The notes beneath the pieces were generated by a model that was not told the origin of the DNA, did no database searches, and was given only the letters and a program-made list of their open reading frames with translations. Of a DNA stretch of 11,067 nt, positions 1 through 10,662 are shown piece by piece; the first letter of the stretch is position 1, and every line of letters begins with the position of its first letter. The stretch comes from a virus (lineage: Duplodnaviria; Heunggongvirae; Uroviricota; Caudoviricetes), in the IMG/VR virus record IMGVR_UViG_2690316002_000013; one strand, given 5' to 3'. Made by a program: the position numbers and the translations under genes.

Positions 1-1461
1 ATGAAAAAATTACTGCATCTTTTTTTCCCGCTCTCGCTGCGGGTACGTTTTCTGTTAGCAACGGCAGCAGTAGTATTGGTGCTTTCGCTTGCCTACGGAA
101 TGGTTGCGCTGATCGGTTATAGCGTCAGTTTCGATAAAACCACGTTTCGGCTGTTACGTGGCGAGAGCAATCTGTTCTATACCCTTGCGAAGTGGGAAAA
201 CAATAAGTTGCATGTCGAGTTACCCGAAAATATCGACAAGCAAAGCCCCACCATGACGCTAATTTATGATGAGAACGGGCAGCTTTTATGGGCGCAACGT
301 GACGTGCCCTGGCTGATGAAGATGATCCAGCCTGACTGGCTGAAATCGAATGGTTTTCATGAAATTGAAGCGGATGTTAACGATACCAGCCTCTTGCTGA
401 GTGGAGATCATTCTATACAGCAACAGTTGCAGGAAGTGCGGGAAGATGATGACGACGCGGAGATGACCCACTCGGTGGCGGTAAACGTCTACCCGGCAAC
501 ATCGCGGATGCCAAAGTTAACCATTGTGGTGGTGGATACCATTCCGGTGGAGCTAAAAAGTTCCTATATGGTCTGGAGCTGGTTTATCTATGTGCTCTCA
601 GCCAATCTGCTGTTAGTGATCCCGCTGCTGTGGGTCGCCGCCTGGTGGAGTTTACGCCCCATCGAAGCCCTGGCAAAAGAAGTCCGCGAACTGGAAGAAC
701 ATAACCGCGAATTGCTCAATCCAGCCACAACGCGAGAACTGACCAGTCTGGTACGAAACCTGAACCGACTGTTAAAAAGTGAACGCGAACGTTACGACAA
801 ATATCGTACGACGCTCACCGACCTGACCCATAGTCTGAAAACGCCACTGGCGGTGCTGCAAAGTACGCTGCGTTCTCTGCGTAGTGAGAAGATGAGCGTC
901 AGTGATGCTGAGCCGGTAATGCTGGAGCAAATCAGCCGCATTTCACAGCAAATTGGCTACTACCTGCATCGTGCCAGTATGCGCGGCGGGACATTGCTTA
1001 GCCGCGAGCTGCATCCGGTCGCCCCACTGCTGGACAATCTCACCTCGGCGCTGAACAAAGTGTATCAACGCAAAGGGGTCAATATCTCTCTCGATATTTC
1101 GCCAGAGATCAGCTTTGTCGGTGAGCAGAACGATTTTGTCGAGGTGATGGGCAACGTGCTGGATAATGCCTGTAAATATTGCCTCGAGTTTGTCGAAATA
1201 TCTGCAAGGCAAACAGACGAGCATCTCTATATTGTGGTCGAGGATGATGGCCCCGGTATTCCCTTAAGCAAGCGAGAGGTCATTTTCGACCGTGGTCAAC
1301 GGGTTGATACTTTACGCCCTGGGCAAGGTGTAGGGCTGGCGGTAGCCCGCGAAATCACCGAGCAGTATGAGGGTAAAATCGTCGCCGGAGAGAGCATGCT
1401 GGGCGGTGCGCGGATGGAGGTGATTTTTGGTCGCCAGCATTCTGCGCCGAAAGATGAATAA
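1..1461 (+). CDS. phoQ: Sensor histidine kinase PhoQ (PhoP/PhoQ two-component system), complete 486 aa
   Basis: Full-length ORF starting at window position 1. Translation shows N-terminal TM helix, periplasmic acidic patch ([11 protein letters not shown]), H-box ([12 protein letters not shown]) and HATPase motifs ([15 protein letters not shown]). Matches my recollection of E. coli PhoQ almost residue for residue. Confidence 0.97.
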
Positions 1462-1971
1462 ATATGTCCTTTTATCACCACAGCAAGGCAACCAATTGAT
1501 TTAATTAAACAACTCACACTGCAAAAAGTGCTAAAAACAGCAAATTGACTACACCATTAACTACACCGTTCGGTGCACTGTATGAAACAACGTTGAACAA
1601 ATAGACACAAGAAATATACAGGCGGGTAATCTTTCCAGGGGGAAGCGCACCAATTCATGAGGGGCGTTAATGTCGATATGGGGATCCCCATAACGGGGCT
1701 ACCAGATTTTTTTTCCGGTTAACTGTTAATCAGGCTGGTGGGCTTTACCTGTTCGGTAGGTGTTATGATTATCGTAATACCTTTCCCCCAATGGGGTAAA
1801 AGCTCCAACCGTAACGATGTTCGTTATGGTTGCCTTGATGGTCTGAGTGGTCATTTTGACCATTCAGCCAATGACCTTAATCAGAATTTTTCGCTAAAAA
1901 ATGACGTTGGCCACGTCATCCGGAAAGCACAAAATCACGTCGATTTTTAATGAACGGTTAAACCGTCTTTT

Positions 1972-2007
1972 TGTCACGGTGTGTCACTGGTTGTCACTCT
2001 CCGTCAC
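1972..2007. repeat. Four (T/C)GTCAC hexamers phased at exactly 10 bp (starts 1972, 1982, 1992, 2002)
   Basis: Read directly: ttGTCACggtgTGTCACtggtTGTCACtctccGTCACg. Helical-turn phasing is typical of arm-type recombinase/Xis sites or other cooperative DNA-binding arrays. Confidence 0.6.
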
Positions 2008-2096
2008 GATTGAGGTGGTGGACATTCTGCCCGACCGCGCATTTTTGCGCTATCGGGAATATCAAACAGTTACCGCGCCGACTTCCTCAAATTGAG

Positions 2097-2237
2097 GTTT
2101 CCGAAAATATCAGCGGGTTAGCGATTAAGCTGACGAGTAATTAAACTGCGAAAATTTCGTAGTTTGTGACTATCTGAAAGATAGTCGGTTGTTCCGGCCT
2201 CAGCCGTTGGCTGTTTCCGAAAATATCAGTAGGTTAG
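2097..2237. repeat. 26-bp direct repeat pair GTTTCCGAAAATATCAG-YR-GGTTAG (2097-2122 and 2212-2237, 24/26 identical) flanking the palindrome GACTATC-tgaaa-GATAGTC (2168-2186)
   Basis: Seen in sequence, in the non-coding stretch between phoQ and the first element gene. Confidence 0.6.
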
Positions 2238-2238
2238 G

Positions 2239-2262
2239 CCAAAGCTCAAAAATGAGCTTTGG
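2239..2262 (-). other. Perfect 10-bp inverted repeat CCAAAGCTCA-aaaa-TGAGCTTTGG, 16 bp 3' of the 93-aa gene; weak terminator or protein-binding palindrome
   Basis: Seen in sequence. No strong U-tract follows on either strand, so the terminator reading is tentative. Confidence 0.35.
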
Positions 2263-2277
2263 AACAATATCAACAAG

Positions 2278-2559
2278 TTACCGCCGTAACCGCTCCGGCT
2301 TCTTCCAGTGGTACGTAATTTTCTCCGTTTCCCGATACAGTGCCACGCGGCGATTGTAGGCCAGCATTTCAAGAACGCGGATCCGTATGTTGCGCATATC
2401 CACATCATTAAGCTGGATACCATCACGGCGCATCACCTCAGCAACAACACGCGCATAATTTTCGGCTGTCACGCTGTCCGGCTGCGTGGCCTGTTCGTCA
2501 GTCTGCTGGCTGATTCCACCAGCACGGCGGATTAATCCCAGTATTTCGGCTTCTGTCAT
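2278..2559 (-). CDS. Hypothetical small phage-type protein (93 aa), function unknown
   Basis: Intact ORF co-directional with the other element genes; its start lies about 34 bp from the cos-1 inverted-repeat arm. No family recognised by eye. Confidence 0.5.
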   Translation of the reverse strand: MTEAEILGLIRRAGGISQQTDEQATQPDSVTAENYARVVAEVMRRDGIQLNDVDMRNIRIRVLEMLAYNRRVALYRETEKITYHWKKPERLRR

Positions 2560-2592
2560 TGTGCACCCATCGTTCTGATTGTCTGGTGTCGT

Positions 2593-2795
2593 CGGGTCCT
2601 TCCTGGAATTATGGACCCGTTACGGGGCGGCGACCTCGCGGTTTTTATCTGTTTATGAAAATTTTCCGGCAAAAGTCAGATCCGTTCTTCTTCTCTGTAA
2701 CAGACTGTTTAACAATGAAAATATTAAAAAAAGAAAGGATCTGACACGAGGCATTTTAGCCAGAAAATGCCATTATCAGATCCTTTCTCATTTTT
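2593..2795 (+). other. Lambda-type cohesive-end site cos-1: cosQ-like arm, cosN (GGGCGGCGACCT, 2625-2636) and cosB with R3/R2/R1-like repeats (GATCCGTTCTTC 2679-2690; GAAAGGATCTGA 2733-2744; AGATCCTTTCTC 2778-2789)
   Basis: 2619-2700 closely follows the phage lambda left end as I recall it (GGGCGGCGACCTCGCGGGTTTTCGCTATTTATGAAAATTTTCCGG...CCGTTCTTCTTC). Orientation is cosN then cosB toward higher coordinates. Confidence 0.8.
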
Positions 2796-2815
2796 GTTCA
2801 ATAATTGCGCGTCTG

Positions 2816-3358
2816 TTACTCGCCTTTCTTCTGTAGCAACTTTTCCGGTACGTTTCCGGTTGTTTCTTTCAAGTAATCAGTCAGTATCTGTGGGAGGTTG
2901 TCGGCAACTCTGGCACTGGCATTACAGGCTTTAACCACTTCCCTTTTAAGCCTATCCAGCATGGCGGGGGTAATCTGTGGGAAGCTCCTTTGCATAGTAA
3001 GCGGGAGGCTGTCCATGATTGATGAAATCTGACTCGCCAGCTTTGAAAGCGCGTACAGGCAAAACTCAGTATCAATCACGTCACCGCGATCGCGCTCGTT
3101 TTTAAGTTCCTGCGCCTCCGCCTGTGCTGTCAGTAATCTGATCCTGACTCGTAAGAGTTCATCATCATCAATATCGCCTTTGTCGTTTGTAAGCTGGCTA
3201 ATTGCATTGTTAACCCTATTGTCTATCACGCTGGCAACATCATAAAACGCCTCACGGCCTTTACGTTCAACGGGAGTCACTCCCCACTTGTCGAACGCTG
3301 TCGCACTTACACGGCAGCTTTTCGCCATGTTTTTTTTGTTCATCAGGTGCGATTTCAT
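2816..3358 (-). CDS. Terminase small subunit, lambda Nu1 family (180 aa ORF; true start may be the internal Met at 3341-3343)
   Basis: Translation aligns by eye with lambda gpNu1: LLTAQAEAQELKNERD vs LTRAQADAQELKNARD, and TEFCLYALSKLASQISSIMDSLPLTMQRSFP vs TAFCTFVLSRIAGEIASILDGLPLSVQRRFP. Sits directly downstream of cos-2, the canonical cos-then-Nu1 arrangement. No strong Shine-Dalgarno at either candidate ATG. Confidence 0.9.
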   Translation of the reverse strand: MKSHLMNKKNMAKSCRVSATAFDKWGVTPVERKGREAFYDVASVIDNRVNNAISQLTNDKGDIDDDELLRVRIRLLTAQAEAQELKNERDRGDVIDTEFCLYALSKLASQISSIMDSLPLTMQRSFPQITPAMLDRLKREVVKACNASARVADNLPQILTDYLKETTGNVPEKLLQKKGE

Positions 3359-3534
3359 TAATACACCAACTTAATTACTGCTTCAGGTTGGTGTATTGTT
3401 TGCATCTTTCCCTTTTTATTCATAAAGATAGATCAAACAACGAAACCACCACCACCCCCCTGAAAAGGCTCATAAATAGCGAAAAACCGCTAGGTCGCCG
3501 CCCCGTAACGGGCCATAATTCCAGGAAGGACCCG
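3359..3534 (-). other. Second lambda-type cos (cos-2), inverted: cosN complement AGGTCGCCGCCC at 3492-3503, cosQ-like arm to 3534, degenerate cosB and a 9-bp-stem hairpin (3364-3397) just upstream of terS
   Basis: Reverse complement of 3485-3534 matches 2593-2641 with only two differences (one 1-bp indel, one mismatch). Similarity to cos-1 and to lambda fades inside cosB. Confidence 0.75.
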
Positions 3535-3535
3535 T

Positions 3536-3557
3536 AAAAAAGCCGGATTTCTCCGGC
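3536..3557 (-). terminator. Intrinsic terminator closing the head operon (minus strand: GCCGGA-gaaa-TCCGGC then TTTTTT)
   Basis: GC-rich 6-bp stem, 4-nt loop, U6 tract, 7 bp after the stop of the 137-aa gene. First of three near-identical copies. Confidence 0.6.
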
Positions 3558-3563
3558 CTTGTC

Positions 3564-3977
3564 TCAGATGGTTTTCAGTATGCGATCGATGTCGCCGTCA
3601 TCGCCCTGGTTTCTGCCATCGTATGCCATGCCAGCTGATACGGCTTGCGGGCTGTGCATGTCCATAAAGTTTTCAAAGGCTGCGGTAAGTTCCGGCGCAA
3701 CCTTCGGACGTTCCTGCTCTATGGTCATGCTAAGGATGCTTTTAGCCGTACCAACATCGATACAAGGCACGTTTGCCATTGCACGCAACAGCGGCTGATA
3801 GTCTTTATGCTCATGAAGCGCCATAATCGCATCAGCGCGCGGCTTGTCCTGCTCTTCCAGTTTGTTTAGTTGATATACGGCCTCATAGGTTGATAAACCT
3901 CTGTCAGCCATTGCCCGCGCTTCGACTTTAAATTTACTCGCCAGCGGTAGCGTCATGATGCTTTCATTCGTTGCCAT
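3564..3977 (-). CDS. Hypothetical protein (137 aa) between the decoration gene and cos; possible packaging or head-completion factor
   Basis: Intact ORF with strong SD (AGGGGGAA) 12 bp after the decoration gene stop. No similarity recognised to lambda FI, FII, W or Nu3 by eye. Confidence 0.65.
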   Translation of the reverse strand: MATNESIMTLPLASKFKVEARAMADRGLSTYEAVYQLNKLEEQDKPRADAIMALHEHKDYQPLLRAMANVPCIDVGTAKSILSMTIEQERPKVAPELTAAFENFMDMHSPQAVSAGMAYDGRNQGDDGDIDRILKTI

Positions 3978-3989
3978 CGTTCCCCCTGC

Positions 3990-4325
3990 TTATCGGGCCA
4001 GCGGCTGAACGGATACGCCGGAACCCGCAAAGGCGGCGCATTTTTTCGCATCGGTGTCGACGCTCTCAGGCCAGTTAACGGCGGCAATATTGAATATCCC
4101 CGTCTTGTAACACTGTGCTGATTTCTGCTTTGACGTGCCCACAGGGTACGAGGTCAGATAAACAGCCTTGCCAGATTCCTGACCATCCCACGGCTTAAAC
4201 TCGCCATTGTCTGCCAGCATCAGCGGGGTAAATTCCTGAATAACGCCAGCATCAGCGGCAAAATGTACCAACGTCGTGGATACCTGCTGACTGCCTGCAA
4301 ATAACTCAATGTATGGAGTGTCCAT
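3990..4325 (-). CDS. Head decoration protein, lambda gpD family (111 aa)
   Basis: Aligns with lambda gpD: TPLMLADNGEFKPWDG vs TPLMLDTSSRKLVAWDG, CYKTGIF vs FYKSGTF, KKCAAFAGSGVSV vs KKRTAFAGTAISIV. SD GGGGGGA upstream, 12 bp after the capsid gene stop. Confidence 0.9.
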   Translation of the reverse strand: MDTPYIELFAGSQQVSTTLVHFAADAGVIQEFTPLMLADNGEFKPWDGQESGKAVYLTSYPVGTSKQKSAQCYKTGIFNIAAVNWPESVDTDAKKCAAFAGSGVSVQPLAR

Positions 4326-4337
4326 AGAATCCCCCCG

Positions 4338-5393
4338 TTAACCAATTTTGACGGTAACAAATTTGCGAATATCTGCCGGTACCGGCTGCGGTGCACTGTG
4401 TGTCTGCACGTACTCAATCGCCGGATCGCCGTCCTCAATCCAGTTTTTCGGGTAAAACATGTTTTGTGTTGCGCCCGTTCTTACCGCTTCCTGATCCATT
4501 ATCGCACCATAGGCCACCAGCCCTTTATTGTTGGTGTTACCCAGGACCAGCAAATCAGGCTCAAGGAAATATTTTTCGGTACCATCGCTGTCAGTGTATT
4601 TGCCGGAATAGACGATAAGGGCCAGATCACCAAGATAGCCTTTAAAGCTCACCACTTCGCCCAGGTTTTTACAGGCCAGTTCGGCGGCGGATTCTGAACC
4701 ACGGGAAAGATCGTACAGCTCACGGAATTTTTTAAAGCTGCCTAATGTGCGCCATACCTCAGCGCCCATAATCATGACGTTTGCGGGGCAACCAGCCTGA
4801 TCAGCATAAAGCTCGATGTCATAGATTGGGTCGTGCATGTCTTTATCCTGCTCGGACCATTTTTTACCCTTGGCCTGCTCTATGATGCAGTTTTCCGGTA
4901 TTTTCCAGTCGATTTCATAGCGTTCTATGCCTTCGCCCTCAATGATGTTTTTTCCGGTCGTTACCGCATTCACCGCCAGCCATTCCACGCGTGCCTTAAT
5001 GGCGTTTATCTGGCGGCGCATGTTGCCAGTAATCAGGCGCATACGGCGATAGGTAGGGTCGTTAAGCTGTGCCGGATCTTCTCCAGCCATGCGCATGATG
5101 GTTTTCGTTGGATCGATTTCGTGCTTTGGCTTCATGTAGCCAGGTTTGATTGTGCTGGTTTCGTACCCTTTATCGCGCTGAACCTGGCTACCCACCATAG
5201 GCGAACAAAACGCCGACATGGTGACTTCTTCAATGTCCAGGGTATCCAGCATGATGTTTTGCGTGCTGAATGTCGCCACGTTCGGGAAAAACAGCGTGGT
5301 AAACAGAGGGCTGAATTTAAAATCCGCAATATCCCCGCGATTCAGGTACATGAAAAGCTGGTTAGTGTTAAGTGCCGTTGCTTTGCCTGCCAT
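4338..5393 (-). CDS. Major capsid protein, lambda gpE family (351 aa)
   Basis: Extensive by-eye alignment with lambda gpE (FKFSPLFTTLFF vs FKFDPLFLRLFF; PGYMKPKHE vs PGYVKPKHE; DPTYRRMRLI vs DPAYRRRRII; VSFKGYLGDLALIVYSGKY vs VSYKGMYGDVAIVVYSGQY; LVLGNTNNKGLVAYG vs MVLGNTQARGLRTYG; YPKNWIEDGDPA vs YPKNWVTTGDPA). Confidence 0.95.
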   Translation of the reverse strand: MAGKATALNTNQLFMYLNRGDIADFKFSPLFTTLFFPNVATFSTQNIMLDTLDIEEVTMSAFCSPMVGSQVQRDKGYETSTIKPGYMKPKHEIDPTKTIMRMAGEDPAQLNDPTYRRMRLITGNMRRQINAIKARVEWLAVNAVTTGKNIIEGEGIERYEIDWKIPENCIIEQAKGKKWSEQDKDMHDPIYDIELYADQAGCPANVMIMGAEVWRTLGSFKKFRELYDLSRGSESAAELACKNLGEVVSFKGYLGDLALIVYSGKYTDSDGTEKYFLEPDLLVLGNTNNKGLVAYGAIMDQEAVRTGATQNMFYPKNWIEDGDPAIEYVQTHSAPQPVPADIRKFVTVKIG

Positions 5394-5599
5394 TATTCAC
5401 CCCCATAATTTTTATGCATCCCAAGCGCCGCAAGTAAATAAGAGCGTACAAGTGAACCTATCGACGGCTCCGGCGTCATCAGCGGATCCAGTCCAGCCGC
5501 AACGCCAGCTTCATAGTTTTTTTTGTGGCGCTGCTTGAGCACCTCCACGATTTCGGGGCTTATGTACACCGAAACACCGCCTTTTTTCTCTTCAGCCAT
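5393..5599 (-). CDS. Small ribbon-helix-helix-like protein (about 68 aa from Met at 5597-5599), translationally coupled to the capsid gene
   Basis: SD AGAGGA precedes the ATG at 5597-5599. Its stop overlaps the capsid start (TAATG). The segment KGGVSVYISPEIVEVLKQ looks like an RHH beta-strand plus helix; this is an inference from the pattern, not a search. Confidence 0.55.
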   Translation of the reverse strand: MAEEKKGGVSVYISPEIVEVLKQRHKKNYEAGVAAGLDPLMTPEPSIGSLVRSYLLAALGMHKNYGGE

Positions 5600-5631
5600 A
5601 GTAAGAAATTCCTCTTCGACTAAAAAAATCA

Positions 5632-5690
5632 TAACTGGATGTTTATCCAGTCCTGATTATAATCAGAATTGCATTTTATGCAATGATATT
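5632..5690 (-). promoter_or_regulatory. Candidate promoter/operator region of the RHH-capsid operon with three palindromes: CTGGAT-gttt-ATCCAG (5635-5650), TGATTATAATCA (5654-5665), TTGCAT-ttt-ATGCAA (5669-5683)
   Basis: Seen in sequence. TATAAT lies inside the central palindrome on both strands, and TTGCAT/ATTGCA sits 15-16 bp away as a possible -35. Confidence 0.45.
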
Positions 5691-5764
5691 GAGTTATGTT
5701 GCAAATTATGAAATGATTATCCCGATCACGAACGCCAGTGCATCCAAAAACCTCATATGCAAAA

Positions 5765-5802
5765 GCCCGATAAGAACCCTCTGACCTTATCGGGCTTTTT
5801 TT
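5765..5802 (+). terminator. Plus-strand intrinsic terminator (GCCCGATAAG ... CTTATCGGGC then T6)
   Basis: 10-bp GC-rich stem followed by TTTTTT on the plus strand only, although every annotated gene nearby is on the minus strand. Confidence 0.55.
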
Positions 5803-5808
5803 GGGCGC

Positions 5809-5830
5809 AAAAAAGCCGGATTGCTCCGGC
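5809..5830 (-). terminator. Intrinsic terminator after the 74-aa gene (GCCGGA-gcaa-TCCGGC then T6 on minus strand)
   Basis: Second copy of the AAAAAAGCCGGATTKCTCCGGC module. Confidence 0.6.
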
Positions 5831-5850
5831 TATGTGTGCTGTGTGCTGGC

Positions 5851-6075
5851 TCAGTCTCTGATCTCTTTCAGAAATTCTATCAATGCATCTATCTGTTCAG
5901 GATTTACCGCCAGCATTTCACCGGATAGAGCACATCTCACAAAACCATGCTGATCCTTTTCAATCAGTGCGCCCGTCTCCAGGAATGCGCGGTAATCATT
6001 GATGCTCATCGTCTCCATGTTGTCAGCATGGTATTTATCACGCTGTTTTAATATCTCATCAAATTTCATCGGCAT
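5851..6075 (-). CDS. Hypothetical protein (74 aa), stand-alone unit bounded by terminators
   Basis: Intact ORF with SD AGAGGA 9 nt before the ATG. No family recognised. Confidence 0.55.
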   Translation of the reverse strand: MPMKFDEILKQRDKYHADNMETMSINDYRAFLETGALIEKDQHGFVRCALSGEMLAVNPEQIDALIEFLKEIRD

Positions 6076-6171
6076 TGTTTTTTTCCTCTGTTGTGTCTGT
6101 TTGTTTCAGATAGTAACTATGCCTGACCGTGACGAAAACCCGGTAATGCGCCATACCGTTTCAACTGGTGC

Positions 6172-6194
6172 AAAAAAAGCCGGATTTCTCCGGC
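6172..6194 (-). terminator. Intrinsic terminator after the PerC-like gene (third copy of the GCCGGA-tttc-TCCGGC module with A/T tract)
   Basis: Hairpin 6179-6194 preceded on the plus strand by A7 (U-tract on the minus strand), 8 bp after the stop. Confidence 0.6.
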
Positions 6195-6201
6195 TGTTTG
6201 A

Positions 6202-6474
6202 TTAGCTGTCCTGGTAATTGCGCCATATTTCATCACCAGCACCATCTATACCCATTTCGGCATAAGTGCGATCGACTGCCTTTTTCAGGTCTCCGAAATT
6301 ATCCGGCGGCTCCGGTGCCCTCTGTGCCTTCCTTGAACATTCCAGCCGTCGCATCGTGATGTGATGCCGTTCCTTGTCTGTCTCCACCAGCTGCATGACT
6401 TCACCCCATCGCGCCGCCGCCCTCCGGTAAAAGCCTTTCGCCTCCAGTTCCTCCGCTATGCGGTCATGTACCAT
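6202..6474 (-). CDS. PerC-family transcriptional regulator homologue (about 90 aa from Met at 6472-6474)
   Basis: N-terminal MVHDRIAEELEAKGFYRRAAARWGEVM fits the conserved PerC/Pch signature as I recall it. Strong SD GGGGGTGA upstream. The longer 130-aa ORF in the track would overlap the SSB gene. Confidence 0.75.
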   Translation of the reverse strand: MVHDRIAEELEAKGFYRRAAARWGEVMQLVETDKERHHITMRRLECSRKAQRAPEPPDNFGDLKKAVDRTYAEMGIDGAGDEIWRNYQDS

Positions 6475-6484
6475 CGTCACCCCC

Positions 6485-6895
6485 TCAGAACGAAATATCA
6501 TCACCGTAAGAGTCATCGCCTCCCGCTGGTGGCTGATTACCCTGTGTGCCTGTGGTTTTGCGTCTGTTCCCGCCTGGACGTGCCGCGCGGGCACTGATTA
6601 CGCTGTCTGCGATAACCTGCCAGCCCTGCCGCGTTTCTCCGTTCTGTCCGGTCCACTGGCTTACCTGCATCGTGCCGGATACGCTGGCAACATCGCCTTT
6701 TTGATGTTTAGCCAGGAAGTCGGCCTGTTTGCCAAATGCGATGACCGATAACCATAACGTCGCCTGTCCGTCCTGTGCCTGGCTGCATGGCAAAGATACC
6801 GCCATACGCGCCAGCGTCATCGGTGTGCCCTTGCTGGTCTGTTTTACCTGCGGGTCGTCCACCAGCCGCCCGTAAGCGGCTATCTGTGCCGTCAT
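6485..6895 (-). CDS. Single-stranded DNA-binding protein (SSB family, 136 aa)
   Basis: OB-fold-like core (LWLSVIAFGKQADFLAKHQKGDVASVSGTMQVSQWTGQNGETRQGWQVIADSV), Gly/Pro/Gln-rich linker and acidic tail ...GDDSYGDDISF resembling the canonical SSB DDDIPF tip. SD GGAGAGG upstream. Confidence 0.8.
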   Translation of the reverse strand: MTAQIAAYGRLVDDPQVKQTSKGTPMTLARMAVSLPCSQAQDGQATLWLSVIAFGKQADFLAKHQKGDVASVSGTMQVSQWTGQNGETRQGWQVIADSVISARAARPGGNRRKTTGTQGNQPPAGGDDSYGDDISF

Positions 6896-7143
6896 AATTC
6901 CACCTCTCCGGTTTTAACGTTGATGGTTGTTACCTGTTCCGCTTCGGCAATCTCCCGTTCTGTCAGCGTGGCAAAGTTTGCCGCCGCCGTGGTCATGAAT
7001 GCGCTTATCAGGTCGGGATGTTCCTTCGCGTATCCTTCCCGCGTGTGGCGGTCTATCGTTCTGATTGCCACCTTTAAGGTGTGCTCAGTCATGTCTAACG
7101 CTTTATATTTTGGCTCTGTTCTGTCTCTGCGTTTTTGGGTCAT
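6892..7143 (-). CDS. Hypothetical small protein (about 83 aa from ATG at 7141-7143), translationally coupled to ssb
   Basis: Its stop overlaps the ssb start (ATGA). The track's longer ORF begins at a GTG. No family recognised. Confidence 0.5.
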   Translation of the reverse strand: MTQKRRDRTEPKYKALDMTEHTLKVAIRTIDRHTREGYAKEHPDLISAFMTTAAANFATLTEREIAEAEQVTTINVKTGEVEL

Positions 7144-7149
7144 TTCTCG

Positions 7150-7345
7150 CAACCTCTCACTTTTTCGCCTCACTTTTTCAAGCGTCTCACTTCGTCGCAG
7201 TTGGGATTTTCGGTTTTTCTATGTGTGTGTTTCATAAGTATTTTTTTACCCCTCACTTTTGAGGATGTATACAGGTCGAAAAGTGAGGGAGAGCGGGCTA
7301 ATTTTGGCCCTCTTTCTATCCCCCTCGCTTTTGCTCCTCACTTTT
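7150..7345. repeat. Iteron array, candidate replication origin: about 7 copies of CTCAC(T)TTT (7156, 7169, 7186, 7252, inverted at 7279-7288, variant CTCGCTTTT at 7324, 7337) plus an AT-rich stretch (7214-7248)
   Basis: Counted directly in sequence. Includes a convergent pair CCTCACTTTT / AAAAGTGAGG around GTATAC. Lies immediately 3' of the RepA-like gene; the last iteron overlaps its stop codon. Confidence 0.6.
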
Positions 7346-8385
7346 ATAGCGGCGCTACATCATCCCCATCGATACGAATAACCCCATCTTTTTCCAGCTT
7401 GTACAGCCAGCGCCGGAAGTTTTTCATTTCATACCCCAGCTTTTTCATGTCATCACGTAACAGCGGGATCGTGCACTTGTCGCCGTTCTGTGTGCGTGAA
7501 CGGATGCACCCCCATAGCGCGGTATGGTTTTCCGTCTTGTTCCCTGCCTCCTCGATGCGCTCCAGTTCAACAGGAGGGCGCGGATCATCCACCACCACCA
7601 GCGACGTGATTAATTCACCGTCAGCGTCGGTAAAAAGCTCCACCACGCGTAAGTCATATGCGGCTTCTTTGAGTTCCTCCGCGTCCTTCATTTTGGTGCA
7701 TGAGATAACCAGCGCTTCGCTTCCTGCGTCCTCCCTGCGTATCCGGTATTCAGCATCCAGCGAAGCACGAAATGCACTGGAACCGCGCGCGCCTTTCGTC
7801 TCATCCTTGCCGGAATGGTGAACCACCAGCACCGTGGCCCCTGTGCGTCGTTTCAGTTCGTCACAACCACGGATAAACGCCCCATATCACGGGAATCATT
7901 TTCATCATTCCCACCAAAGCAACGCGCCAGCGTATCCAGAATAATCATGCGTACAGGTTTACCCGTTTCCCGCTCCACCTGACGGGCAGCGATAACCATT
8001 TCATCAACATCAAGCGGGGCAGCCGGAAAGATGGGGCGGTTTACCAGATACAGATTTTTCACCTGCTCATCGTGCACAACCTCCCAGGCTTTTACACGAC
8101 GCGGAACACCTATACCGCCTTCACCAACCACATAGAGAACCGCACCATGTGCAACCCTGCGGCCTCCCCACTGGCGACCAGTGGCAACATGGCACGCCCA
8201 CGATCCGGCAAGGAATGATTTATAGGACCCGCTAGCCCCGTATATGCTGCATAGCGATACCGCCGGAATAATCCCCTTAACCACGTAATCCAGTTGCGTG
8301 TCGTATCCGGTAGATCCAACGCTCATCGGTAGCGTGGTTTTTCGCTGGTGGTTTTTTTCTTCCGCCGGCTCTTTCCCGCGCACCC
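7344..8385 (-). pseudogene. RepA-like replicative ATPase (AAA_25/RecA-fold, DnaB-like helicase family) with C-terminal winged-helix-like domain; reading frame broken by a 1-nt frameshift near 7872-7877, 5' end running into the N gap
   Basis: Walker A GASGSYKS, Walker B-like MIILDTLA and the LVVHHSGKD motif lie in two different frames (tracks 7853..8623 and 7344..7832). One extra A in the run at 7875-7877 would give a continuous ...DMGRFIRGCDELKRRTGATVLVVHH... . A possible ATG start is at 8324-8326 but has no SD. Confidence 0.6.
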
Positions 8386-8616
8386 NNNNNNNNNNNNNNN
8401 NNNNNNNNNNNNNNNNNNNNNNNNNNNNNNNNNNNNNNNNNNNNNNNNNNNNNNNNNNNNNNNNNNNNNNNNNNNNNNNNNNNNNNNNNNNNNNNNNNNN
8501 NNNNNNNNNNNNNNNNNNNNNNNNNNNNNNNNNNNNNNNNNNNNNNNNNNNNNNNNNNNNNNNNNNNNNNNNNNNNNNNNNNNNNNNNNNNNNNNNNNNN
8601 NNNNNNNNNNNNNNNN
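8386..8616. other. Assembly gap (231 N)
   Basis: Run of n characters. Truncates the RepA-like gene on one side and the pin gene on the other. Confidence 0.99.
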
Positions 8617-9063
8617 GGTACAAAGTCCGAAAGGCCGGGACTGAAAAAACTGCTCAGGACATTATCGGCAGGTGACACGCTGGTGGTCTGGAAACTGGAC
8701 CGGCTGGGGCGCAGTATGCGGCATCTTGTCGTGCTGGTGGAGGAGTTGCGCGAACGAGGCATCAACTTTCGTAGTCTGACGGATTCAATTGATACCAGTA
8801 CCCCAATGGGGCGCTTTTTCTTTCATGTGATGGGTGCCCTGGCTGAAATGGAGCGTGAACTGATTGTTGAAAGAACAAAAGCTGGACTGGAAGCTGCTCG
8901 CGCACAGGGACGAATTGGTGGACGTCGTCCCAAACTTACACCAGAACAATGGGAACAGGCCGGACGATTAATTGCATCAGGAGTTCCTCGCCAGAAGGTG
9001 GCGATTATCTATGATGTTGGTGTGTCAACTTTGTATAAGAGGTTTCCTGCAGGGGATAAATAA
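8617..9063 (+). CDS. pin: Serine recombinase / DNA invertase of the Pin-Gin-Hin-Cin family, 3' part only (N-terminal ~35-40 codons lost in the gap)
   Basis: In-frame translation from 8617 reads GTKSERPGLKKLLRTLSAGDTLVVWKLDRLGRSMRHL...FFFHVMGALAEMERELIVERT...GRIGGRRPKLT..., closely matching e14 Pin as I recall it. Followed by mcrA as in e14. Confidence 0.9.
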   Translation, partial: GTKSERPGLKKLLRTLSAGDTLVVWKLDRLGRSMRHLVVLVEELRERGINFRSLTDSIDTSTPMGRFFFHVMGALAEMERELIVERTKAGLEAARAQGRIGGRRPKLTPEQWEQAGRLIASGVPRQKVAIIYDVGVSTLYKRFPAGDK

Positions 9064-10401: not shown

Positions 10402-10424
10402 TTACCACATGTGTTAAATATTAT

Positions 10425-10453
10425 AACGGGCGTATAACACGCCCGTTGTTTTT
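10425..10453 (+). terminator. Intrinsic terminator after the icd 3' fragment (AACGGGCGT-ataac-ACGCCCGTT then T5)
   Basis: 9-bp GC-rich stem and U-tract 24 bp after the stop codon. Confidence 0.65.
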
Positions 10454-10662
10454 ATAAATATGTTAACCGTTATAAAATAACGTATCAAAAGTCAAGTGAA
10501 CACATTTCAAATATCAATTTGATCGTATTGGTCTGGTGATTATTTATGGGGAGCAATAAAAAGACAGTATTAATCATCCATAGGGATAGTCTCTGCACTT
10601 TTATTTCCATTATGCTAATGCCTTACTGAATTATGAAGCATTTTTTAAGCTCCCAACTTTAG

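What the first reader, a model, noticed from the sequence alone, without database searches (positions are those of the whole stretch)
1462..2277. phoQ 3' junction: 0.8 kb non-coding, repeat-rich tract replacing the K-12 neighbour
In K-12, as I recall, roxA/ycfD follows phoQ almost immediately; here there is no roxA and no convincing ORF for 816 bp. The tract holds four (T/C)GTCAC hexamers phased at 10 bp (1972-2007), a 26-bp direct repeat pair (2097-2122, 2212-2237), and palindromes ATGGGGATCCCCAT (1676-1689), GACTATCtgaaaGATAGTC and CCAAAGCTCAaaaaTGAGCTTTGG. This looks like an element terminus or att arm, or the scar of a rearrangement breakpoint.
Basis: partly seen in the sequence, partly recalled or inferred. 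Interest (0 to 1): 0.55.

Follow-up and report, generated by a model that had tools for sequence, protein, structure and literature searches.

The report
Non-coding end of a phage satellite
The 0.8-kb gene-less tract after phoQ is the integrase-distal end of a known kind of phage satellite (an EcCICFT073-type PICI) inserted between phoQ and roxA, so it is ordinary as an element, though its internal repeats have no description that I could find.

Summary
All the repeats and palindromes exist, with one 2-nt coordinate slip, and no credible gene lies in 1462-2277.

The tract is not core DNA and not a rearrangement scar. It is the non-coding, integrase-distal end of an EcCICFT073-family phage-inducible chromosomal island (PICI). 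K-12 has phoQ, 75 bp, then roxA. Here the island starts inside a 10-bp core, AAATATGTCC (1460-1469), that overlaps the phoQ stop codon. In a closed relative the same core recurs 11.9 kb away, next to int and roxA.

The tract has four zones:
- an att arm, with an IHF-consensus site, ACTACACC x2 also found in the int-side arm, and three repeats phased at 10 bp;
- a nearly invariant block, with a 22-bp GATC-centred palindrome and a Chi site facing the lambda-type cos end;
- an optional block holding GTCAC x4;

The identity of the tract is firm. What the GTCAC array and the modules do is not known.

Seen in passing: Chi is the most frequent 8-mer of these islands, about 1 per kb.

The parts
1460..1469 (+). 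att core AAATATGTCC; overlaps the last two bases of the phoQ stop codon (TAA, 1459-1461); left boundary of the island
   Evidence: K-12 empty site reads GAATAAATATGCCCATACTTC. The window diverges from K-12 after 1469. In RM10466 the same 10 bp lie at both ends of the 11.9-kb island.
1489..1501 (-). IHF-consensus site (AATCAATTGGTTG) about 20-30 bp from the core
   Evidence: Pattern match. The ATTGAT core is kept in all tract variants, including those at other att sites. Binding is inferred from the consensus only.
1542..1577 (+). arm-type repeat block: ACTACACC x2, 12 bp apart (1548-1555, 1560-1567)
   Evidence: Direct repeat D19. A 36-nt copy at 92% identity lies just upstream of the int start codon in the other arm of RM10466. 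That integrase has an Arm-DNA-binding domain, PF13356. Variants at clpS, thiM and yifB carry equivalent paired repeats.
1584..1610 (+). three direct repeats GAAACAA / GAACAA / GACACAA phased at 10 bp (ends at 1590, 1600, 1610); candidate sites for Int or an excision factor
   Evidence: Read from the sequence. A partial copy lies in the int-side arm. CGAACAA x3 stands at the equivalent place in the divergent arms L043 and L044.
1674..1695 (.).
   Evidence: Its core 14 bp (1678-1691) is invariant in 33 unique tracts; the outer 3' positions (1692-1697) vary. The invariance is partly forced, because the search anchor covers 1666-1689. A second copy sits deeper in island L024.
1734..1741 (+). Chi site GCTGGTGG inside the nearly invariant run AATCAGGCTGGTGGG; oriented to be read by RecBCD entering from the cos#1 side
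   Evidence: Present at the equivalent position in all 41 related loci listed. The protective role is inferred.
1848..1862 (.). palindrome TGGTCATTTTGACCA
   Evidence: It forms the stem in the fold. It overlaps the start of the non-conserved 45-aa ORF.
1870..2036 (+). optional block: palindrome ATGACGTTGGCCACGTCAT (1901-1919), AAAATCACGTCGATTTT (1931-1947), hairpin plus T-run (1954-1972), then the GTCAC array
   Evidence: The GTCAC array (1972-2007) that the block carries is present in 10 of 39 related islands and absent from CFT073, O55:H7 and cf-PICI versions; one island (L035) keeps the left part of the block but lacks the array.
1972..2007 (+). four YGTCAC units at exactly 10-bp spacing; probably a head-to-tail protein-binding array, protein unknown
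   Evidence: It is the only such array in 485 kb of related loci. L044 and L045 carry 5 units directly abutting the stop codon of the ORF93-like gene. The overlapping ORF is not coding.
2037..2072 (+). module 1: hairpin GCGCA-TTTT-TGCGC (2037-2050), 9 nt, TATCAAACAGTTA (2060-2072)
2143..2186 (.). two further palindromes: AAACTGCGAAAATTTCGTAGTTT (2143-2165) and GACTATCTGAAAGATAGTC (2168-2186)
   Evidence: stems in both strands.
2201..2236 (+). module 3: hairpin CAGCC-GTT-GGCTG (2201-2213), 10 nt, TATCAGTAGGTTA (2224-2236); holds the second copy of the 26-bp repeat
2239..2280 (+). module 4: hairpin CCAAAGCTCA-AAAA-TGAGCTTTGG (2239-2262), 5 nt, TATCAACAAGTTA (2268-2280); its TTA is the ORF93 stop codon on the other strand
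   Evidence: The ORF93 C-terminus PERLRR* is conserved.
2278..2559 (-). ORF93, last gene of the island's late operon (phrog_1561, function unknown); defines the right edge of the tract
   Evidence: Homologues end classical PICIs and cf-PICIs alike. None in 50,697 phage records.
2593..2788 (+). cos#1: lambda-type cosQ/cosN (GGGCGGCGACCT near 2625-2636) followed by three R-like repeats GATCC(G/T)TTCT (2676-2688, 2732-2744 inverted, 2776-2788)
   Evidence: I1, I2, I3, I6, D16. Two cos sites are published for EcCICFT073 (PMC6092414, PMC6739421).
2816..3358 (-). 180-aa Phage_Nu1-family protein in the slot where EcCICFT073 has RppA
   Evidence: Pfam PF07471, E 2.4e-23. No PDB match. The CFT073 gene in this slot matches RppC, PDB 6hlk.
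3459..3535 (-). cos#2, inverted copy of cosQ/cosN
   Evidence: Inverted repeats I1 and I2.
3990..5393 (-). gpD-like head decoration gene (3990-4325) and gpE-like major capsid gene (4338-5393)
   Evidence: Pfam PF02924 and PF03864. Same genes as c1500 and c1499 of EcCICFT073.
7140..8387 (-). CTCACTTTT iterons (about 7140-7345, putative ori) and the RepA-type helicase gene, cut by the N-run
   Evidence: AAA_25.

Best explanation
Positions 1462-2277 are the non-coding, integrase-distal terminal region (the prophage att junction on the phoQ side) of an EcCICFT073-family phage-inducible chromosomal island. The island is integrated by a tyrosine integrase into the phoQ-roxA intergenic spacer.

Shown:
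- The island begins in a 10-bp core, AAATATGTCC, that rebuilds the phoQ stop codon.
- The next 150 bp or so form the recombination arm. It holds an IHF-consensus site, two ACTACACC repeats that recur in the int-side arm, and three repeats phased at 10 bp.

Inferred:
- 1617-1760 is a nearly invariant cis-acting block.
- Its Chi site faces the right cohesive end made at cos#1. It would therefore stop RecBCD after about 0.9 kb, when the linear satellite DNA enters a cell that has no helper Gam protein.

Inferred, weakly:
- The right half (2037-2280) is a one-way array of composite modules, each a short hairpin of variable sequence, 9-10 nt, then an IHF-consensus 13-mer.
- These modules most likely act together as the structured end of the late operon's transcript and as IHF-bent DNA between that operon and attP/int in the excised circle.
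- Their shared 20-mers also serve as the joints at which islands exchange or lose end segments.
- The GTCAC x4 array is an optional insert of the same kind. It probably binds a protein head-to-tail on one face of the helix. The protein is unknown.
For: Identity of the element:
- K-12 has 75 bp between phoQ and roxA.
- RM10466 has roxA, int, alpA, RepA helicase, SSB, capsid, decoration protein, Nu1-like protein, ORF93, the tract, then phoQ.
- CFT073 carries the published EcCICFT073 at the same site, with a 554-bp version of the tract.
- roxA|phoQ is listed as a prophage-like insertion site in O157:H7 (PMC8190617).

att:
- The core is duplicated at both ends.
- A 36-nt arm repeat lies in both arms.
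- The integrase has an arm-binding domain.
- Equivalent paired repeats occur in islands at clpS, thiM and yifB.

Not core DNA:
- Parts of the tract occur in 1147 of 5426 complete E. coli genomes. In every locus examined it lay at the end of a satellite.
- There is no match in 50,697 phage records.

Not coding, and no known RNA.

Chi:
- The run around the tract's Chi site is nearly invariant.
- Its orientation relative to cos is consistent across the loci that carry the lambda-type cos.
- Chi is the most frequent 8-mer of the islands.

Modules:
- 107 consensus hits lie on the + strand of the tract zone of 42 loci, 76 of them with a perfect hairpin just upstream. Elsewhere, about 418 kb read on both strands gives 167 hits, 7 with a hairpin.
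- In 30 of 33 modules with a perfect stem, the spacer is 9-10 nt. There are 16 distinct stem-loops.
- The N4 positions of the 13-mer vary while WATCA and TTA do not.
- The same end module is joined to three different packaging modules.
Against: - No binding, transcription or packaging data exist for any site in the tract. IHF, Int and Chi roles rest on consensus matches and position.
- The conserved block extends about 290 bp from the core, which is long for an att arm. I cannot say where the arm ends.
- The hairpins lack U-tracts on either strand, so they are not classic terminators.
- The GTCAC array is essentially one conserved sequence, so its periodicity has no independent evolutionary support. 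Across the variant copies, substitutions hit spacers 4 times and repeat units 2 times.
- Chi sites are frequent on both strands throughout the island (115 on + and 163 on -), so the single tract site is not uniquely placed.
- Helper Gam would inhibit RecBCD during lytic growth anyway.
- In this window the island's int side is missing, so this copy may be immobile.
Confidence: 0.88

Rival explanations
1. The tract is ordinary core intergenic DNA downstream of phoQ, shared by strains without any element.
For: The first 8 bases after the stop codon resemble K-12.
Against: K-12 has 75 bp here and none of the tract. The tract is always followed by satellite genes. It also occurs at four other chromosomal sites. 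Only 1147 of 5426 genomes hold any of it.
Confidence: 0.01
2. The tract is the scar of a rearrangement breakpoint, or decayed pseudogene debris with no function.
For: The window does hold a real discontinuity elsewhere: the island's RepA upstream region is joined to e14 tail-fibre DNA under the N-run. The right half of the tract is mosaic, with block presence or absence between relatives. Modules ending GTTACCGC look like copies of the ORF93 3' end.
Against: The phoQ junction is a clean site-specific one, with a duplicated core. 1495-1750 is nearly invariant across 33 unique versions. The modules keep hairpin geometry, a fixed spacer and a single orientation while stem sequences differ, which is not how debris behaves.
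Confidence: 0.06
3. The tract hides a small gene or a small RNA. One candidate is the hydrophobic 41-45-aa peptide on the minus strand (1863->1726; MV(K/I)MTTQTIKAT...), which could be a type I toxin. Another is an sRNA from the invariant block.
For: Two divergent alleles both keep an open frame from the same ATG in 4 of 8 relatives, and the RM10466 allele is strongly hydrophobic. The invariant block has alternative GGGG/CCCC pairings.
Against: There is no Shine-Dalgarno sequence. The frame is stopped in 2012C-4221, absent in CFT073, and has lost its first ATG in S. flexneri. No family matches. No promoter-like or terminator-like signal lies around the block. The block's folding is no better than shuffles (z 0.3 and -0.3). 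No Rfam match even at E<=10.
Confidence: 0.08
4. The right half is an empty or decayed accessory-gene slot of the satellite. In this reading the hairpin + 20-mer modules are cassette junctions left by gain and loss of cargo, and have no role of their own in the life cycle.
For: SaPI-type islands carry accessory genes at this end (PMC6092414). Tract length varies from 470 to 952 bp, with 1-7 modules. Break points between relatives fall at module edges. The same end is joined to three different packaging modules.
Against: None of about 45 related island ends examined carries a recognisable cargo gene in the slot. The only annotated ORFs there are short hypothetical ones. L024 has island structural genes there, not cargo. 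This reading overlaps with the best explanation rather than excluding it.
Confidence: 0.25

Closest known systems
EcCICFT073, the prototype Gram-negative cos-type PICI (Fillol-Salom et al. 2018, PMC6092414; 2019, PMC6739421)
   Same: Same insertion site next to phoQ. Same gene order at this end: gpE-like capsid, gpD-like decoration protein, 137-aa ORF, a gene flanked by two inverted lambda-type cos sites, a 93-aa ORF, then a non-coding tract. Left 290 bp of the tract nearly identical. Modules present.
   Different: The CFT073 tract is 554 bp and lacks the GTCAC block. The gene between the cos sites is RppA there and a Phage_Nu1-family protein here. In the passages of those papers that I searched, which were term searches and not a full reading, I found no description of the tract's repeats.
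cf-PICIs such as EcCIEDL933 (Alqurainy et al., bioRxiv 10.1101/2022.09.08.507074)
   Same: Islands with hnh-terS-terL end in an ORF93 homologue followed by the same tract, at phoQ and at other sites.
   Different: A different packaging module. Up to 7 modules and no GTCAC block in the phoQ copy examined.
Lambda-type attP arms, for tyrosine integrases with an arm-binding domain plus IHF
   Same: A short core duplicated at both junctions, arm-type direct repeats in both arms, a WATCAA-type site beside the core, and an integrase with an Arm-DNA-binding domain.
   Different: Site order and distances differ from lambda. The conserved stretch is longer than usual arms. Nothing has been footprinted.
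RIP / BIME-1 elements of E. coli (an IHF site combined with REP palindromes; recalled from the literature, not tested against a library)
   Same: An IHF-consensus site joined to short GC-rich palindromes, repeated in non-coding DNA at the ends of transcription units.
   Different: Here there is one hairpin of variable sequence on one side only, a fixed 9-10-nt spacer, tandem one-way arrays and no REP sequence. The modules were found only in the tract zone of the satellite loci examined, and the whole tract has no match in the phage collection.
Chi sites and cos orientation in phage lambda (orientation rule recalled from the classical literature)
   Same: A Chi on the strand that ends 3' at the right cohesive end, which is the orientation active for RecBCD entering at cos.
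   Different: Wild-type lambda has no Chi and encodes Gam. These satellites carry about 1 Chi per kb on both strands and show no recognisable Gam in the parts examined.

Membership tests
PICI, EcCICFT073 family (criteria of Fillol-Salom et al. 2018) | Insertion at a specific att site with a duplicated core | tested here: met
   Core AAATATGTCC at 1460-1469. K-12 empty site. Both copies present in RM10466. EcCICFT073 lies at the same site.
PICI, EcCICFT073 family (criteria of Fillol-Salom et al. 2018) | Integrase and alpA at the other end | tested here: inconclusive
   Not present in the window or in the identical contig L030, where the island is cut upstream of the helicase gene. Present in the closest complete relative, RM10466: PF00589 + PF13356 integrase and PF05930 AlpA.
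PICI, EcCICFT073 family (criteria of Fillol-Salom et al. 2018) | Own replication protein with an iteron origin next to it | tested here: met
   AAA_25 RepA-type helicase at 7344-8387 and beyond. CTCACTTTT repeats at about 7140-7345.
PICI, EcCICFT073 family (criteria of Fillol-Salom et al. 2018) | Helper-type cos sites, with a packaging-redirection gene between them | tested here: met
   Two inverted lambda-type cosQ/cosN copies. The gene between them is Nu1-family, not Rpp, so this is a variant within the family.
PICI, EcCICFT073 family (criteria of Fillol-Salom et al. 2018) | About 10-15 kb, with no tail or lysis genes | tested here: met
   The RM10466 relative is 11.9 kb with no tail or lysis genes. 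The window part holds only capsid, decoration, PerC, SSB and helicase genes.
PICI, EcCICFT073 family (criteria of Fillol-Salom et al. 2018) | Induction, packaging and transfer by a helper phage | not testable with these tools
   Shown experimentally for EcCICFT073 only (PMC6092414).
att arm of an arm-binding tyrosine integrase | Arm-type repeats present in both arms, away from the core | tested here: met
   36-nt repeat with ACTACACC x2: 81-116 nt from the core on the phoQ side, and just upstream of int on the other side.
   They lie 500-770 bp from the core. They are absent from many islands that have the same arm and the same site. They have no counterpart in the int-side arm.
Intrinsic (Rho-independent) terminator | GC-rich hairpin directly followed by a U-tract | tested here: not met
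   The module hairpins are followed by TTTCC, TATCG or ATTGT on + and by AAGTC on -. The only terminator-like hit in the tract is 1954-1966.
RIP / BIME-1 | IHF site flanked by inverted REP sequences | tested here: not met
   There is a single hairpin on one side, in 16 different stem-loop sequences. None reads as a REP sequence as I recall REP; no REP library was searched.
Known RNA family (Rfam 15) | Covariance-model match | tested here: not met
   No hit in the tract at E<=1 on the whole window, and only two chance-level hits at E<=10 on the tract alone.

The most novel reading that the evidence does not exclude
The ends of enterobacterial PICIs may carry two adaptations that I could not find described.

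1. Saturation with Chi sites: about 1 per kb, the most frequent 8-mer, with one conserved copy facing the cos end. This would let a Gam-less satellite survive RecBCD when it arrives alone in a new cell.
2. A new family of one-way composite repeats: a structure-conserved hairpin, a fixed spacer and an IHF site. These would insulate the late operon from attP/int and act as the joints for modular exchange between satellite lineages.
Probability: 0.3. Interest if true: 0.5.

Novelty: new member of a known kind. Interest (0 to 1): 0.28.

Why it matters
As an element it matters little. It is one more copy of a well-studied satellite family at a known site, and this copy appears to have lost its integrase side.

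Two by-products could be worth a specialist's time.
- These satellites are about five times richer in Chi than my recalled figure for the E. coli chromosome (about 0.22 per kb), whereas the neighbouring lambdoid helper prophage region is nearly Chi-free. That suggests a testable way for satellites to cope with RecBCD without a Gam protein.
- The island end shared by classical PICIs and capsid-forming PICIs carries an ordered set of cis elements (a palindrome with Chi, an optional GTCAC array, hairpin-IHF modules). I found no description of them in the parts of the satellite papers I searched. They may explain how different packaging modules are swapped onto one integration module.

Tried and rejected
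- Rfam on the window and on the tract alone: nothing.
- Promoter and terminator scan: no promoter-like site in the tract and one terminator-like hairpin.
- Coding tests: six small ORFs and two allelic forms against NCBIfam and PHROGs gave nothing. Frame conservation across relatives was rejected.
- Phage and plasmid collections with the tract: no phage hit. There were five plasmid-collection records, two with no island-sized plasmid context and all with the same partial coverage.
- The search for related loci with ORF93 in one-genome-per-species contigs: only S. flexneri, so no cross-genus comparison was possible.
- Association of the GTCAC array with any island protein: only linkage to the adjacent ORF93 allele and to overlapping spurious ORFs.
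- A scan for inverted Chi pairs in viral contigs returned unrelated chance hits and was dropped.
- ORF93 as a possible DNA-binding partner of the repeats: no PDB, Pfam or NCBIfam match. The family is narrow. The AlphaFold model is all-helical at pLDDT 71.5, too weak for a fold search, which I did not run.
- Formal covariation counting on the module hairpins was abandoned, because loop length and register differ between modules, so ungapped columns do not correspond. Per-module hairpin detection with an inside/outside control was used instead.
- Ideas considered from memory and dropped for lack of fit: Pho-box or OmpR-type sites for GTCAC (the period is 10, not 11, and the spacers are GC-rich); lambda Int arm-type sites (there is no second array near any core); integron attC (GTTRRRY is met by only some modules and there is no inverse core); IS200/IS605-type ends (no transposase, and the arrays are tandem).
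Full report
**Observation.**
The window opens with phoQ (1-1461). No gene follows until a 93-codon ORF on the minus strand (2278-2559).

- Four YGTCAC hexamers lie at 1972, 1982, 1992 and 2002.
- The 26-bp pair 2097-2122 / 2212-2237 matches at 23 of 26 positions.
- The palindromes are at 2168-2186 and 2239-2262.
- ATGGGGATCCCCAT lies at 1678-1691, two bases right of the stated place, and is the centre of a 22-bp palindrome.

The right half folds much better than shuffled sequence on both strands (z down to -6.4). The left half does not.

**What surrounds it.**
The genes to the right, all on the minus strand, are these:
- ORF93;
- a lambda-type cos site;
- a Phage_Nu1-family gene;
- a second, inverted cos site;
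- a 137-codon ORF;
- gpD-like and gpE-like head genes;
- PerC and SSB;
- CTCACTTTT iterons;
- a RepA-type helicase.

This is the layout of EcCICFT073, the prototype cos-type PICI. Its two cos sites and its capsid and decoration genes are published (PMC6092414, PMC6739421). In the CFT073 genome, EcCICFT073 sits at this same place beside phoQ, with a 554-bp version of the tract. Its gene between the cos sites matches RppC of PDB 6hlk. The window's gene in that slot does not.

**The junction.**
- K-12 reads phoQ-TAA-ATATGCCCATACTTC..., with 75 bp to roxA.
- The window reads TAA-ATATGTCC and then diverges.
- In the closed genome RM10466 the same tract (91.5% identity) lies between phoQ and an 11.9-kb island. 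The far end of that island is int, then the core AAATATGTCC, then the K-12 sequence ATACTTCACG, then roxA.

The 10-bp core is therefore duplicated, overlaps the phoQ stop codon, and marks a site-specific insertion. roxA is displaced, not replaced. roxA|phoQ is also listed as an insertion site of a 10.4-kb prophage-like element in O157:H7 (PMC8190617).

In addition, pieces of the tract lie at the ends of satellites inserted at tqsA, clpS, thiM and yifB.

**Zone 1, the att arm (1460 to about 1616).**
- A WATCAANNNNTTR match lies 20-30 bp from the core (1489-1501, minus strand).
- ACTACACC occurs twice, 12 bp apart (1548-1567). A 36-nt block containing both copies recurs at 92% identity in the other arm, directly upstream of the int start codon.
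- That integrase has an Arm-DNA-binding domain.
- Next come GAAACAA, GAACAA and GACACAA, ending at 1590, 1600 and 1610. This is another 10-bp phased set. It is partly repeated in the other arm, and CGAACAA x3 takes its place in divergent islands.

**Zone 2, the conserved block (about 1617-1760).**
I gathered 33 unique versions of the tract from IMG/VR and complete genomes. Across them this stretch is nearly invariant, although selection by an exact 24-nt anchor (1666-1689) forces part of that.

It holds the GATC-centred palindrome, a CCGGA-T8-CCGG hairpin, and GCTGGTGG at 1734-1741. That 8-mer is Chi.

cos#1 has lambda's order, cosQ-cosN-cosB, from low to high coordinates. The right cohesive end therefore lies at about 2636, and the + strand ends 3' there. 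By the classical orientation rule, which I recall and did not test, a + strand Chi is the active orientation for RecBCD entering at that end. It would be met after about 0.9 kb.

Every related locus listed has this Chi, and where the lambda-type cos is present the relative orientation is the same.

The block is not better folded than shuffles. It has no Rfam match, no promoter-like site and no conserved reading frame. I read it as protein-binding DNA, but I cannot say where the att arm ends.

**Zone 3, the optional block (1870-2036).**
Its GTCAC array occurs in 10 of 39 related islands and is missing from CFT073, O55:H7 and the cf-PICI at phoQ. One island (L035) keeps the left part of the block but stops just before the array.

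The block carries two palindromes, a hairpin with a T-run, and the GTCAC array. The array is one conserved 36-nt sequence and is found nowhere else in 485 kb of related DNA. Two islands at other sites have five units, and there the array abuts the stop codon of the ORF93-like gene.

The 64-codon ORF that covers the array is frameshifted in one relative. No island protein co-occurs with the array beyond linkage to its neighbours. A head-to-tail protein-binding array on one face of the helix is the natural reading. The protein is unknown.

**Zone 4, the modules (2037-2280).**
Each unit is a perfect hairpin (5-11 bp stem, 3-4-nt loop), then 9-10 nt, then (T/A)ATCA(A/G)NNNNTTA. The window has four units. 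The last one overlaps the ORF93 stop codon.

Evidence across 42 loci:
- The + strand of the tract zone holds 107 matches to the 13-mer, 76 of them with a hairpin just upstream.
- The rest of the loci, about 418 kb read on both strands, holds 167 matches, 7 of them with a hairpin.
- Among 47 unique modules, 33 have a perfect stem. These comprise 16 different stem-loop sequences.
- In 30 of those 33 the spacer is 9-10 nt.
- The WATCA and TTA positions are fixed, while the four middle positions vary, as in the IHF consensus.

Structure and spacing are therefore kept while the stem sequence is not. The hairpins lack U-tracts on either strand, so they are not classic terminators.

Islands carry 1-7 modules, and the break points between relatives fall at module edges. 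The same end region is joined to three different packaging modules:
- lambda-like E/D head genes with Rpp or a Nu1-family protein;
- hnh-terS-terL of cf-PICIs;
- a Terminase_2 plus HK97-type capsid set.

**How it most likely works.**
Firm: the tract is the phoQ-side att junction and terminal non-coding region of the satellite.

Inferred:
- In the excised circle the order is late operon, ORF93, modules, Chi block, arm, core, arm, int, all in one direction.
- The modules and palindromes therefore sit exactly between a strongly induced operon and the recombination site and int gene.
- I take them to be a combined transcript-end and DNA-bending buffer, and the place where lineages recombine.
- The Chi site would limit RecBCD attack from the cos end when the linear DNA enters a cell without helper Gam.

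None of this has been tested.

**Comparison and novelty.**
The element is a new member of a known kind, since EcCICFT073 and cf-PICIs are published. In the parts of those papers that I searched by term, I found no description of the tract's internal organisation. A search for Chi together with PICIs found nothing relevant. Absence from my searches is not proof of novelty.

**Seen in passing.**
- Chi occurs 11 times in the window against 0.32 expected from shuffles. Nine of these are in the 6.9-kb island part, where it is the most frequent 8-mer.
- In 31 related islands Chi occurs 278 times in 269 kb. It ranks first of 47,636 8-mers and is about 8 times an order-3 Markov expectation.
- The 45.8 kb of CFT073 from phoQ through the lambdoid prophage holds 2.
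- The window's N-run hides 1391 bp in which the island's helicase gene start is joined to e14 tail-fibre DNA. This copy therefore lacks int and alpA. The joint may be a real inversion or an assembly artefact.

**Verdict.**
The element is ordinary. The internal repeats and the Chi load are modestly interesting leads.

Noticed in passing
window 1462-8387 (Chi at 1734+, 2516-, 4514-, 6384-, 6525+, 6859-, 7595-, 7823-, 8344+), plus 8679+ and 8733+ in pinE: Chi (GCTGGTGG) occurs 11 times in the window against 0.32 expected from shuffles, and it is the most frequent 8-mer of the island part. In 31 related islands it occurs 278 times in 269 kb (1.03 per kb), ranking first of all 8-mers. The 45.8 kb from phoQ through the neighbouring lambdoid prophage in CFT073 has 2. 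I found no paper on this.
   Followed up: partly
window 8388-8627 (N-run); L030 8386-9776: The 240 N stand for 1391 bp in an otherwise matching IMG/VR contig (99.98-100% identity). That stretch holds the 5' part of the island's helicase gene, then, about 10 bp upstream of its start codon, an e14-type tail-fibre assembly gene and a tail-fibre fragment, then pinE. The island's int/alpA side is therefore missing, and the two halves of the window are in opposite K-12 orientations. This could be an inversion joint at the Pin-invertible segment or an assembly chimera. An ambiguous base sits at the joint.
   Followed up: partly
window 2593-2640 and 3459-3535: Two lambda-type cosQ/cosN copies in inverted orientation flank one gene. 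cos#1 is followed by three R-like repeats GATCC(G/T)TTCT arranged like lambda R3, R2 and R1. This is known for EcCICFT073 (cos1 and cos2).
   Followed up: partly
window 2816-3358 (-): The slot that holds RppA in EcCICFT073 holds a 180-aa Phage_Nu1-family protein here (match to Pfam profile positions 35-162, so the N-terminal DNA-binding part may differ). It has no PDB match. It may be a different way of redirecting helper packaging.
   Followed up: partly
window 2278-2559 (-): ORF93 (phrog_1561) is the last gene of classical PICIs and cf-PICIs alike. It is absent from 50,697 phage records and has only 41 cluster representatives in 1.8 billion proteins. Its C-terminus YxWKKPERLRR is conserved. 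The predicted structure is all-helical at pLDDT 71.5. Function unknown.
   Followed up: partly
window 1726-1863 (-): A 45-codon ORF (41 codons and strongly hydrophobic in the RM10466 allele) starts inside the palindrome TGGTCAT.ATGACCA. Two divergent alleles keep a frame open, but it is broken in several relatives and has no ribosome-binding site. Probably not a gene.
   Followed up: yes
window 2662-2767: A long imperfect hairpin lies between cosN#1 and the Nu1-like gene. It produced chance-level Rfam hits (XIST intron, mir-1284). It is formed by the inverted R-like repeats of cosB.
   Followed up: no
window 7140-7345: CTCACTTTT-type iterons in both orientations lie next to the helicase gene. 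They are the presumptive island origin.
   Followed up: no
window 10415-10563 (-): A weak match to STnc150 (31 bits against a gathering score of 60, E 0.0016) lies downstream of the icd 3' fragment, outside the island.
   Followed up: no
L024 (oriented coordinates about 2180-2420 relative to the window): This island at phoQ has a different packaging set (Terminase_2 TerS, HK97-type capsid, D5-type primase-helicase). In place of ORF93 it carries a second partial copy of the palindrome + Chi block, bracketed by two copies of CGATATGGTGATCCCCATATCG. The block therefore behaves as a repeatable unit.
   Followed up: partly
L043 (clpS site) and L044 (thiM site): Divergent island ends carry Chi on both strands as an inverted pair around a GATC-centred palindrome (GCTGGTGG ... 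CCGATACCGAGATCCCGG.ATCGG ... CCCACCAGC). The window keeps only a degenerate left copy (CTACCAGA, 1699-1706).
   Followed up: no
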